Below, in pieces: positions 17,290 through 19,460 of a DNA stretch of 64,000 bases. The stretch comes from the human T2T-CHM13v2.0 reference genome, Homo sapiens, in the NCBI GenBank assembly GCA_009914755.4, contig CP068257.2, positions 21,440,001 to 21,504,000 on the forward strand, given 5' to 3'. The notes under the pieces are model-generated. The model saw only the letters and a list, made by a program, of their open reading frames with translations. It ran no database searches and was not told where the DNA came from. A program made the translations under genes and the position numbers. Each line of letters opens with the position of its first letter. Position 1 is the first letter of the stretch.

Positions 17290-19460
17290 TAAAATTTAAC
17301 CAGACAAAACTGTCTCCTTCTCCCGTGGTGGCAGCAGTGGTGGGGCTGCCGCCCGCCGGAGCATGTCGTGGACTCCAGCGGAGACAAAGGCGCTCTGCGC
17401 AGTGTGGGGCAATGAGCGGCTGGCGGAGGCGCGGTACCAGCAGCTTTAAGGAGCCAGTATAGTGGCTGGCAGCAAGGACCCCCGGGCCAGCCAAGTAGGA
17501 GCTTGTGTCTAGGGCCCTGGCCAAGCTGGGCTATGAGCGGACCTGTCCCAGTGCTGGGAGGCATCAAGCTGGTTGGATGCCCAGAACTGAATGCTATGCT
17601 CCAGCTGTGGCCTCACCAGTGCTGAATAGAGAGGAAGAGCCACCTTCATAGCTTACATGTAATTCTTCTGCTTATACAACCCAGTACCGGATTTACTTAC
17701 TTTGACCATTTGCACGTGTTACAATCGGGTGAAAGAACATGGTGTTGCGAAAAGAAAGAGCAGTTACACAGTAGAACAGTTGGAACAGGTGTTTGCTCAG
17801 GCAGGATGGGATGCTCAGCCCTGCCAGACTGTACTTCTTAACAGCAGTAGCTTGTACCAGGAGCTGGAGTCAGATGGCGGCACCATGGAGGACTATTCAT
17901 TCACAGGAGTACTGGGAACCCAAAGTCAGGATCTCCATGGCTATCCGACAGATCAGGAATCACAAAGAGAAAATTAAAAATTAAACGGCCGGGCACGGTG
18001 GCTTAAGCCTGTAATCCCAGCCCTTTGGGAGGTGGAAAAGGGCGGATCACCGGAGGTCAGGAGTTCAATACCAGCCTGGCCAACATGGTGAAACCCCATT
18101 TCTACTAAAAAAAAAAAAAAATACAAAAATTAGCAGGGCGTGGTGGTGGGTGCCTGTAATCCCAGCTACTTGGGAGGCTGAGTCAGAAGAATCGCTTGAA
18201 CCTGGAAGGTGGAGATTGCAGTGAGCCGAGATTGGACCATTGCACTCCTGCCTGAGTGACAAGAGCGAGACTCCATCTCAAAAAAAAAATAAATAAATAA
18301 AAAATAAAAATAAGTTCAACAAGAGTCTTCTGAAGAAGCACAGAAGAGAGACATCAGGCAGAATACTGTACAGATTTTGGAATCGGTACAGTTGAAATGG
18401 GAACTTTTTCAGAGTTGGACAGAATTTTCAAGGCTCCTTCTTTCTAATAAACTGGCCGTTTTTTGGAATTGGTTATAACACCCGTTGGAAAGGGGATCTT
18501 CATTACCATTATGCTGAGATCACCTCCCAGGTGCCCCTTGGCAAGCGACTTCAGGAGTACTTCAACCCTGAGAAGTCTGAGGGAGGGATCATTATGACAC
18601 AAGTGTAGAAAACGAACTGGAAAAAATGTTTATTACACATTTTTAGAGATCACTATTAGTGAAGCTAGGCGCTTGGAGCTGCAAGTGGAAATTGACTGGT
18701 AACCCATTGCCTACTCCAACTCGATAAGTAGGAATGTTCGATATTTATTGCCTGGAATTATTCCTAAAAGCCCGGGCCTTTATGCCATTGGCTATGAAGA
18801 ATGTATTGAGAGGCTCCTCTCACCGTACATGCAGCAACATTCCCTGGACCCAGGAAAAGAAGGCGGGGTTGACCTGGAAACCCTTTCAGCACAAGCCTCA
18901 TTACAAGTGGTAATAGAACCCACCAGAATTATCTTTTGCCACCTCAGGACTGCTGAGGTCAGGGCTCTGCAGCAGAGCTTATTTTTACATTTCCAAGTGA
19001 ATACCAAAGTCTTCAGCAAATATTGGGTTGGTATTAACAGATTTGTCTCTCAGAGCTGTACTGGGGACCCCAGAGTTTCCCTCAAATCCATCTACATCAA
19101 ATTTGTGGAAGTAGAGAGAGATTTTCTTTCCACTGGCTCTTTAGTTGAGTGCCCTGAAAAAGCCATTGGATGCCTCCTAAAATTTAACAACTGAAGGTCA
19201 TCCTTCATAAGGATTTGGGCTCTTAGCTCCTTCTTCTCTACTCACTTTCCATTACCCAGACCACTCCTCATCCAGATGCTGCCATCAGACTCTTCATGGA
19301 AACTCTTTCCTTGATTGGGCCAGTATGACTTCTAAGGAATCATAGTAGACTTTGGCCAGAAAAAACAGACCTCACCTGAAAATGCTCATTTTGAGCAAGC
19401 AAGATTTATAGCAAACTTGCTTGGTGGGCCAGCTATTTCTTTTTTTAAAACACAAAAACA
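17290..19460 (+). pseudogene. Intronless, 5'-truncated and frameshifted copy of a Myb/SANT-like DNA-binding-domain gene (tentatively MSANTD2-like), split by an Alu insertion
   Basis: Plus-strand frames give a continuous protein-like path with several stops and frameshifts. It reads [28 protein letters not shown] ... VSRALAKLGYERT ... [58 protein letters not shown]...HGYPTDQE [Alu] [39 protein letters not shown]...[25 protein letters not shown]...[24 protein letters not shown]...[35 protein letters not shown] (stop at 19194). The W..E..L...WG / A..LGYERT..QC pattern is the Myb/SANT-like (MADF-type) fold. No introns appear over about 1.6 kb of coding equivalent. The GC- and CpG-rich 5' part spans 17300-17600. 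Confidence 0.65.
17987..18312 (+). mobile_element. Alu inserted within the MSANTD-like copy
   Basis: The copy runs from ggccgggcacggtggcttaagcctgtaatcccagc to gagcgagactccatctc followed by (A)n(TAAA)n. The pseudogene reading path resumes immediately after the tail. Confidence 0.95.

What the first reader, a model, noticed from the sequence alone, without database searches (positions are those of the whole stretch)
17290..19460. Intronless, disabled copy of a Myb/SANT-like domain gene (MSANTD2-like), later hit by an Alu
A protein path of about 530 aa can be followed on the plus strand through several frameshifts and stops: [28 protein letters not shown] ... ALAKLGYERT ... [34 protein letters not shown] ... 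[19 protein letters not shown] ... [23 protein letters not shown] ... [35 protein letters not shown]. There are no introns. The N-terminus has the W-x3-E-x2-L-x3-WG ... LGYERT Myb/SANT-like (MADF/trihelix-type) signature. This is the only protein-coding-derived sequence in the window apart from the ZNF relic. It is most simply a 5'-truncated processed pseudogene. I believe the parent is MSANTD2 (C11orf61), but that rests on memory and is unverified. An Alu (17987-18312) is inserted exactly where the parent would encode a Lys/Glu-rich linker. The 5' part (17300-17600) is CpG-rich only because it is GC-rich coding sequence, not because it is a promoter.
Basis: partly seen in the sequence, partly recalled or inferred. 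Interest (0 to 1): 0.55.

Follow-up and report, generated by a model that had tools for sequence, protein, structure and literature searches.

The report
Known dead retrocopy of MSANTD2 (MSANTD2P1)
This is an ordinary, already catalogued dead copy of the MSANTD2 gene, made by reverse transcription of its spliced mRNA about 40-60 million years ago and later split by an Alu; its one unusual detail is that the copied mRNA carried a conserved alternative exon with a premature stop.

Summary
Window 17312-19643 (+) is a 5'-truncated processed pseudogene of MSANTD2. The stitched translation hits mammalian MSANTD2 at E=5e-228 with 78% identity.

Against the bonobo MSANTD2 gene, the window is collinear with five exon pieces spread over 33 kb, and every intron is absent. 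It starts at codon V80 of the 559-aa protein. It ends 11 nt after an AATAAA, followed by a short A-rich remnant and a 7-bp direct repeat (CAGACAA) that also sits at the 5' edge.

It carries four stop codons at parent sense codons and about eight frameshifting indels. An AluS-like element lies inside the A-rich 'LKIKQ' codons.

The locus is published as MSANTD2P1 (human chr21, simians; PMC9392472).

It is a 136-nt alternative cassette exon from parent intron 1, with an AG acceptor, a GC donor and an in-frame TGA. It is 135/136 identical between bonobo and mouse, appears in predicted isoforms from marsupials to primates, and derives from an antisense CR1/L3-type LINE fragment. The retrocopy was therefore non-coding from birth.

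Novelty: already known. Interest: low.

The parts
17301..17307 (.). 5' copy of the candidate target-site duplication (CAGACAA). It is followed by 4 nt (AACT, 17308-17311) that match neither the parent nor the 3' flank.
   Evidence: Exact 7-mer shared with 19653-19659. A positional null drawn from local sequence gives about 0.02.
17312..17568 (+). Derived from MSANTD2 exon 1, from codon V80 to ...RERIK. Contains a 15-bp in-frame deletion, stops TAA 17447-17449 and TAG 17496-17498, one +1 indel and two -1 indels.
   Evidence: Aligns to bonobo L001 10505-10777. L001 10777 is followed by gtaacc, the exon 1 donor. Identity is 86.7%; 20 of 60 CpG positions are mutated.
17569..17704 (+). Copy of a 136-nt alternative cassette exon that lies inside parent intron 1. 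It has an in-frame TGA at 17623-17625. Its minus strand encodes a decayed CR1/L3-type LINE ORF2 fragment.
   Evidence: 129/136 identical to L001 31500-31635. The boundaries fall exactly on the parent's AG acceptor and G|gcaaga GC donor. The exact exon1+alt-exon product (188 aa) is in NCBI as predicted isoforms. The antisense peptide matches reverse-transcriptase protein P0180 at pairwise E=4e-15.
17705..17959 (+). Derived from MSANTD2 exon 2 (TLRRCYSRVKEH...DQE). Contains a +4 and a -1 indel. Its last 4 nt are lost in a 16-bp deletion that spans the exon 2/3 junction.
   Evidence: Aligns to L001 35660-35911 at 92.4% identity.
17960..17986 (+). 5' part of exon 3 (TKRKLKIK codons), ending in the A-rich Alu target AAAATTAAAAATTAAAC.
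   Evidence: Aligns to L001 about 37601-37625; sequence read directly.
17987..18312 (+). Alu insertion, sense orientation, dimeric, with an A-rich middle linker and an A-rich tail from about 18280. Best match is AluS.
   Evidence: Against consensus sequences recalled from memory: 88.3% to AluSx, 85.7% to AluY, 81.2% to AluJo. Non-CpG divergence from AluSx is 6.4%. There are many Alu hits in L001.
18313..18341 (+). Degenerate right copy of the Alu target-site duplication, plus the 3' part of exon 3 (QESSEEAQ codons).
   Evidence: Aligns to L001 37612-37645.
18342..19194 (+). Coding part of exon 4 up to the parental stop TGA at 19192-19194. Contains stops TAG 18606-18608 and TAA 18700-18702, two +1 indels and a 3-bp deletion.
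   Evidence: Aligns to L001 42598-43450 at 90.1% identity.
19195..19643 (+). 3'UTR of the source mRNA, including the polyadenylation hexamer AATAAA at 19627-19632.
   Evidence: Aligns to L001 43451-43900 at 94.5% identity. Homology stops 11 nt after AATAAA, while the parent genomic sequence continues differently.
19644..19652 (+). A-rich remnant of the poly(A) tail (AAAATAAAA).
   Evidence: Absent from the parent genomic sequence at that point, which reads TAATGGCAAG.
19653..19659 (.). 3' copy of the candidate target-site duplication (CAGACAA).

Best explanation
Window 17312-19643 is MSANTD2P1, a 5'-truncated, L1-mediated processed pseudogene of MSANTD2. A spliced, polyadenylated MSANTD2 transcript was reverse-transcribed into an AT-rich site. 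That transcript included an alternative 136-nt cassette exon with a premature stop, lying between canonical exons 1 and 2. Reverse transcription stopped, or the 5' end was lost, at codon V80, so the copy has no promoter, 5'UTR or start codon. The cassette exon shifts the frame and supplies a stop, so the copy could not encode MSANTD2 even at birth. It then decayed neutrally. The insertion predates the catarrhine/platyrrhine split. An AluS-type element later inserted into the A-rich 'KLKIKQ' codons of exon 3. Shown: the parent's identity, intron loss at all junctions, the 5' truncation, the 3' end at a poly(A) signal, the disablements, relaxed constraint, and relative dating. Inferred: L1 machinery as the agent, and absence of any present function.
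For: Parent: E=5e-228, 78% identity to MSANTD2. Intron loss: five collinear blocks of bonobo L001 (10505-10777, 31500-31635, 35660-35915, 37585-37645, 42598-43904) are contiguous in the window, with block ends on the parent's splice sites. 3' end: AATAAA, an A-rich remnant, and the CAGACAA repeat at both edges with a positional null of about 0.02. The ~450-nt 3'UTR fits the 2,384-nt mRNA quoted in PMC9392472. Decay: 4 substitution stops at parent sense codons, about 8 frameshifting indels and a 16-bp junction deletion. pN/pS is 0.73 on the pseudogene branch. Of 1955 sites, 145 (7.4%) changed only in the pseudogene, against 11 only in bonobo and 9 only in capuchin. Timing: 6 sites group pseudogene+mouse against bonobo+capuchin, versus 2 and 1 for the alternatives. 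The Alu's non-CpG divergence of 6.4% is similar to the pseudogene's. Literature: MSANTD2P1 is described as an intronless processed pseudogene on human chr21, present from human to marmoset and not expressed in brain.
Against: The poly(A) remnant is only 9 nt. The duplication is only 7 exact bp in AT-rich sequence; with no positional constraint, 12% of random local 40-mer pairs share a 7-mer. Four nucleotides at the 5' junction are unexplained. I could not confirm that the flanks form one continuous older L1 element: the PDB search found nothing, and tblastn with a recalled L1 ORF2p gave only a collinear E=0.3 hit. Divergence is uneven, at about 7% in coding parts versus 3.7-3.8% in the cassette exon and 3'UTR (p=0.02). 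Identity of this window with the published chr21 locus is inferred; the window's species and chromosome were not established.
Confidence: 0.97

Rival explanations
1. It is a DNA-level (segmental) duplicate, that is, an unprocessed pseudogene of MSANTD2 that later lost its introns by deletion.
For: None specific. The only deletion seen at a junction is the 16-bp one at exon 2/3.
Against: Three of the four junctions are precise to the base at the parent's splice sites, and about 31 kb of intron is absent. The copy ends at a poly(A) signal and not in downstream genomic sequence. No promoter or upstream sequence was copied.
Confidence: 0.01
2. The 136-bp block at 17569-17704 is an independent later transposon insertion into the pseudogene, not part of the source mRNA.
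For: Its minus strand is LINE (CR1/L3-type) reverse-transcriptase-derived.
Against: It is 94.9% identical to one specific block in MSANTD2 intron 1. It begins and ends exactly at that block's AG acceptor and GC donor. It sits exactly at the exon 1/exon 2 junction. The same exon 1 + block product is annotated as an isoform in many mammals. CR1/L3 elements have been inactive in mammals since long before the simian radiation (my own knowledge).
Confidence: 0.01
3. The retrocopy is dead as a coding gene but has been co-opted as a transcribed non-coding RNA or regulatory element, for example as an antisense or siRNA regulator of MSANTD2.
For: Not excluded by sequence. PMC9392472 raises the idea in general terms. 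The cassette-exon copy and 3'UTR are about half as diverged as the rest.
Against: The substitution pattern is near-neutral (pN/pS 0.73), with many indels. CpGs have decayed to o/e 0.52. No parental promoter was copied. [quoted passage not shown] The divergence difference is marginal (p=0.02).
Confidence: 0.05

Closest known systems
MSANTD2P1 (Etchegaray et al. 2022, Mol Biol Evol 39:msac173; PMC9392472)
   Same: An intronless, disabled retrocopy of MSANTD2 mRNA in a primate genome. The pre-catarrhine/platyrrhine age inferred here matches the reported human-to-marmoset distribution. Relaxed constraint is seen in both.
   Different: Nothing contradicts identity, but it is inferred; I could not place the window on chr21. 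The paper's main text does not mention the Alu, the truncation point, or the alternative cassette exon.
Generic L1-mediated processed pseudogenes
   Same: A spliced cDNA copy, 5' truncation, a 3' end at a poly(A) signal with an A-rich tail, a short target-site duplication, and insertion into AT-rich DNA.
   Different: The tail and duplication are strongly eroded. The source was a minor PTC-containing splice isoform instead of the main mRNA.
Processed pseudogenes as fossils of splice variants (Shemesh et al. 2006, PNAS; recalled from memory, not read here)
   Same: A retrocopy preserves an alternative exon of its parent, which shows the isoform existed in the germline at the time of insertion.
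   Different: Here the preserved exon is a premature-stop ('poison'-type) cassette with a GC donor, derived from an antisense CR1/L3 LINE.
Conserved or ultraconserved poison exons coupled to nonsense-mediated decay (e.g. in SR protein genes)
   Same: The parent's cassette exon has an in-frame stop with three exon junctions downstream. It is 135/136 identical between bonobo and mouse, with about 90% identity in the flanking intron.
   Different: The longest perfect bonobo-mouse run is 153 bp, below the 200-bp definition. NMD sensitivity and autoregulation are untested. MSANTD2 is a Myb/SANT-like protein, not a known splicing factor.

Membership tests
Processed (retrotransposed) pseudogene | Sequence homologous to the mature mRNA of a multi-exon parent gene located elsewhere | tested here: met
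   E=5e-228 to MSANTD2. In bonobo L001 the parent has 4 coding exons plus an alternative exon.
Processed (retrotransposed) pseudogene | Introns absent exactly at the parent's exon junctions | tested here: met
   The exon1/alt, alt/exon2 and exon3/exon4 junctions are exact. The exon2/exon3 junction is covered by a 16-bp deletion, but the 1.7-kb intron is absent.
Processed (retrotransposed) pseudogene | 3' end at a polyadenylation site, followed by a poly(A) tract | tested here: met
   AATAAA at 19627-19632. Homology ends at 19643. AAAATAAAA at 19644-19652 is absent from the parent's genomic sequence. The tract is short and degraded.
Processed (retrotransposed) pseudogene | Flanking target-site duplication | tested here: inconclusive
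   CAGACAA lies at both edges with a positional null of about 0.02, but 12% of random local 40-mer pairs share a 7-mer somewhere. No empty orthologous site was available.
Processed (retrotransposed) pseudogene | Loss of coding capacity and relaxed constraint | tested here: met
   4 substitution stops, about 8 frameshifting indels, a missing start, the cassette exon's stop, and an Alu. pN/pS is 0.73.
Alu (AluS) SINE insertion | A ~280-bp dimeric 7SL-derived body with an A-rich linker and a 3' A-rich tail | tested here: met
   17987-18279 aligns end to end with Alu consensus sequences recalled from memory, best to AluSx at 88.3%. The tail is 18280-18312. It matches many Alus in L001.
Alu (AluS) SINE insertion | Flanking target-site duplication | tested here: inconclusive
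   The left copy is AAAATTAAAAATTAAAC. The right copy, AAAATAAAAATAAGTTCAAC, is similar but has indels and merges with the A-tail.
Poison (AS-NMD) cassette exon, for the parent exon copied at 17569-17704 | Alternatively included exon that introduces a premature stop more than 50 nt upstream of the last exon junction | tested here: met
   The 136-nt exon is not a multiple of 3. The TGA is at exon nt 55-57, with three junctions downstream. Both the skipping (559/648 aa) and the inclusion (188/277 aa) products are annotated.
Poison (AS-NMD) cassette exon, for the parent exon copied at 17569-17704 | The inclusion isoform is degraded by NMD and regulates gene output | not testable with these tools
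   Needs UPF1/SMG1 inhibition RNA-seq or minigene assays.
Ultraconserved element (at least 200 bp identical in human, mouse and rat) | A perfect run of at least 200 bp between primate and rodent | tested here: not met
   The longest perfect bonobo-mouse run is 153 bp, at L001 31518-31670. An earlier 98.7%/535-bp 'mouse' hit was in fact capuchin, because the database file held several records. Corrected in note 3.
CpG island / promoter at 17300-17600 | CpG observed/expected at least 0.6 over at least 200 bp with GC above 50% | tested here: not met
   GC is 0.63-0.66 and o/e is 0.48-0.52, against 0.91 in the parent's exon 1.

The most novel reading that the evidence does not exclude
The retrocopy is a dated fossil, older than the catarrhine/platyrrhine split, of an MSANTD2 isoform carrying a therian-conserved, GC-donor, premature-stop cassette exon exapted from an antisense CR1/L3 LINE. 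This would imply that MSANTD2, a Harbinger-derived neurodevelopmental gene, has long been regulated by alternative splicing coupled to NMD, or produces a truncated Myb-domain protein. I found no paper in the searched library discussing this exon, although predicted isoforms containing it are in NCBI. That the source mRNA carried the exon is essentially shown; the regulatory role is conjecture.
Probability: 0.45. Interest if true: 0.35.

Novelty: already known. Interest (0 to 1): 0.13.

Why it matters
It matters little. The result confirms a catalogued processed pseudogene and gives it exact anatomy: truncation point, junctions, poly(A) site, Alu target and list of disablements. The useful by-product concerns the parent gene. 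The retrocopy shows that the cassette-exon isoform of MSANTD2 was already made in the germline of stem simians. That exon is nearly invariant between primates and mouse and derives from an ancient LINE. Together these make it a reasonable candidate for a regulated unproductive-splicing switch in a gene linked to neurodevelopment.

Tried and rejected
1. Pfam scans of single ORF fragments gave only a sub-threshold Myb_DNA-bind_4 hit (E=0.1). Fragments are too short and decayed, and the stitched path was needed.

2. I tested whether the two flanks form one continuous older L1 ORF2, which would have fixed the target-site duplication. The PDB sequence search of the joined-flank translation found nothing relevant. 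tblastn with an L1HS ORF2p recalled from memory gave only a collinear E=0.3 hit at 16843-16905. This is unresolved.

3. I first read a 98.7%/535-bp match and a 'second copy' of the cassette exon as mouse. That was an error: the database file held mouse, chicken and capuchin records. The high hit is capuchin. Mouse has one copy, 135/136 identical in the exon and 90.5% over 507 bp. The 'ultraconserved element' label was therefore dropped.

4. The turtle match to the exon (L005 31497-31603) is in a different intron and belongs to a dispersed LINE family, so it is not an ortholog.

5. The Xenopus gene look-up found no record, and chicken returned only an mRNA contig. No non-mammalian orthologous intron 1 other than turtle's was examined.

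6. Full-text searches for MSANTD2 with 'poison exon' or 'ultraconserved' returned no papers, and adding the old name C11orf61 to the splicing/conservation terms listed none that mention it. The MBE paper's supplements are not held.

Full report
**Observation**

These include [28 protein letters not shown] at 17363-17449 and a 148-aa open stretch at 18748-19194 ending ...LLKFNN*. I stitched the frames together, left out the Alu, and searched the resulting 467-aa path. It hit 'myb/SANT-like DNA-binding domain-containing protein 2' of gorilla, bonobo, other primates and many mammals at E=5e-228, with 78% identity and 97% coverage.

**Anatomy against the parent gene**

I fetched the bonobo MSANTD2 locus (L001, 53 kb) and mapped its exons with tblastn and splice-site inspection. 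BLASTN and a stitched pairwise alignment show that the window is collinear with five separated blocks of L001.

| Window | L001 (bonobo) | Parent piece |
|---|---|---|
| 17312-17568 | 10505-10777 | end of exon 1; L001 10777 is followed by the gtaacc donor |
| 17569-17704 | 31500-31635 | alternative cassette exon |
| 17705-17959 | 35660-35911 | exon 2 |
| 17960-17986 and ~18313-18341 | within 37585-37645 | exon 3 |
| 18342-19643 | 42598-43900 | exon 4 with ~450 nt of 3'UTR |

- About 31 kb of intron is missing.
- Three junctions are exact to the base.
- The exon 2/3 junction is covered by a 16-bp deletion (TTGGATGAAATACCTG), but the 1.7-kb intron is absent.

**Ends of the copy**

- Homology begins at GTCTCC, codon V80 of the 559-aa protein. 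The 5'UTR, start codon and first 79 codons are absent.
- At the 3' end, homology stops 11 nt after AATAAA (19627-19632). The window then reads AAAATAAAA, where the parent's genome reads TAATGGCAAG.
- Next comes CAGACAA (19653-19659), which also occurs at 17301-17307, just upstream of the copy.
- A positional null from local sequence gives about 0.02 for such a repeat. With no positional constraint, 12% of random local 40-mer pairs share a 7-mer. I rate the duplication as likely but not proven.
- The ~450-nt 3'UTR is consistent with the 2,384-nt mRNA cited in PMC9392472.

**Disablements and decay**

Relative to the parent frame there are:
- substitution stops at 17447-17449 (Glu to TAA), 17496-17498 (Tyr to TAG), 18606-18608 (Gln to TAG) and 18700-18702 (Ile to TAA);
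- about eight frameshifting indels;
- a 15-bp and a 3-bp in-frame deletion, and the 16-bp junction deletion;
- the Alu.

I polarised substitutions with bonobo, capuchin (L004) and mouse (L002) parents.
- 145 of 1955 sites (7.4%) changed only in the pseudogene, against 11 only in bonobo and 9 only in capuchin.
- pN/pS on the pseudogene branch is 0.73. This indicates relaxed constraint, with some CpG and transition bias at synonymous sites.
- Six sites group pseudogene+mouse against bonobo+capuchin, versus 2 and 1 for the alternative groupings. This places the retrotransposition before the catarrhine/platyrrhine split.

**The Alu**

- Positions 17987-18279 plus an A-rich tail to ~18312 align end to end with Alu consensus sequences. 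These were recalled from memory, so the subfamily call is provisional.
- The best match is AluSx (88.3%; 6.4% non-CpG divergence), ahead of AluY and AluJo.
Such A-rich DNA is a typical L1-endonuclease target.
- A degenerate second copy of this target follows the tail.
- The Alu's divergence is similar to the pseudogene's, so it arrived not long after the retrocopy.

**CpG content**

Positions 17312-17568 have GC 0.66 and CpG o/e 0.52, with 14 CpGs. The parent's exon 1 has o/e 0.91 and 34 CpGs, and 20 of its 60 CpG positions are mutated in the copy. This fits inherited CpGs decaying under methylation and not a maintained island.

- This block is 129/136 identical to a block deep in parent intron 1.
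- Its ends coincide exactly with an AG acceptor (...ctcttgtag|CTGGTT) and a GC donor (...ACTTTG|gcaaga) in the parent.
- It is 136 nt long, so it shifts the frame. It reads LVRCPELNAVLQLWPHRC*, with three exon junctions downstream of the stop.
- The exact 188-aa and 277-aa products of exon 1 plus this exon are in NCBI as predicted MSANTD2 isoforms X3-X7. They occur in gibbon, gorilla, chimpanzee, macaques, lemurs, dog, cats and rodents. A 190-aa version is present in the marsupial Petaurus.
- The exon is 135/136 identical between bonobo and mouse, with 90.5% identity over 507 bp including intron flanks. The surrounding intron is ~72% identical. The longest perfect run is 153 bp, so it is not a formal ultraconserved element.
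- I first misread a capuchin hit as mouse. The correction is recorded in note 3.
- The source mRNA was therefore an alternative, premature-stop isoform, and the retrocopy was non-coding from birth.

**Origin of that exon**

- Its minus-strand translation in the window is [40 protein letters not shown]. This matches a turtle protein with a reverse-transcriptase domain (P0180, PF00078) at 59% identity over 41 aa, pairwise E=4e-15.
- The bonobo block matches a turtle repeat peptide at E=6e-10.
- That peptide has at least 7970 relatives labelled 'Reverse transcriptase' in birds and turtles.
- From my own knowledge this is the C-terminal part of CR1-type LINE ORF2, known as L3/CR1 in mammals. The cassette exon is thus an exonised antisense LINE fragment.
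- The turtle DNA hit lies in a different intron and is not orthologous. Turtle intron 1 has no match.

**Comparison with what is known**

- PMC9392472 (Etchegaray et al. 2022) already describes MSANTD2P1. It is reported as an intronless processed pseudogene of MSANTD2 on human chromosome 21, found from human to marmoset but not in macaques or baboons. The paper dates it to 36-50 Myr (about 60 Myr in the abstract), gives a dN/dS closer to 1, and reports no expression in brain.
- Everything found here agrees, so the finding is already known.
- The paper's main text does not mention isoforms, the cassette exon, CR1 or the Alu.
- Full-text searches pairing MSANTD2 with 'poison exon' or 'ultraconserved' found no papers, and a further search adding C11orf61 listed none that mention it.
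- That retrocopies can preserve splice variants is an established idea (Shemesh et al. 2006, from memory).

**Loose ends**

- Flank continuity as an old L1 could not be demonstrated.
- Four nucleotides (AACT, 17308-17311) at the 5' junction are unassigned.
- Pseudogene-branch non-CpG divergence is ~7% in exon 1, exon 2 and the exon 4 coding region, but 3.7-3.8% in the cassette exon and 3'UTR (p=0.02). This may reflect base composition and is not followed further.

**Verdict**

The locus is an ordinary, already catalogued processed pseudogene. The only mildly new point is that it fossilises a conserved, LINE-derived, premature-stop cassette exon of its parent.

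Noticed in passing
window 17569-17704 (minus strand); parent L001 31500-31635: The copied cassette exon is, on its antisense strand, a decayed C-terminal fragment of a CR1/L3-type LINE reverse transcriptase (...LPLYSALVRPQLEHSIQFWA...). 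It matches turtle RT protein P0180 at pairwise E=4e-15. The parent's alternative exon is therefore an exonised ancient LINE.
   Followed up: yes
L001 31300-31835 vs L002 27389-27888: The parent's cassette exon and ~200 bp of intron on each side are 90.5% identical between bonobo and mouse, and the exon itself is 135/136. The surrounding intron is ~72% identical. The donor is GC, not GT. The longest perfect run is 153 bp, below the ultraconserved threshold.
   Followed up: partly
L001 35660-35915 vs L002 31158-31413: Canonical exon 2 of MSANTD2, next to the cassette exon, is 99.6% identical between bonobo and mouse at the nucleotide level (1 change in 256). This implies constraint on synonymous sites as well.
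   Followed up: no
window 19195-19643 and 17569-17704 versus the coding parts: Pseudogene-branch non-CpG divergence is about half as high in the 3'UTR and cassette-exon copies (3.7-3.8%) as in the coding-exon copies (~7%). Fisher p=0.02. Unexplained; possibly base composition.
   Followed up: partly
window 20405-20659 (minus strand): A fragment of the 3' end of L1 ORF2 (...[31 protein letters not shown]...). tblastn E=1e-17 against an L1HS ORF2p recalled from memory.
   Followed up: no
window 16843-17308 and 19660-19760 (+ strand): Both flanks of the retrocopy look like one very old L1 ORF2 in sense orientation (...KIDNPLSRLI... upstream; PDKD|IPRSENHKPI across the joined flanks). Support is weak: E=0.3 and nothing.
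   Followed up: partly
window 21393-21452 and 22155-22377: Further Alu-related segments downstream of the pseudogene match many Alus in L001.
   Followed up: no
window 17265-17567 (minus strand): A 100-aa ORF runs antisense to the exon 1-derived GC-rich segment. It is most likely a by-product of GC-rich sequence having few stop codons. It was not searched.
   Followed up: no
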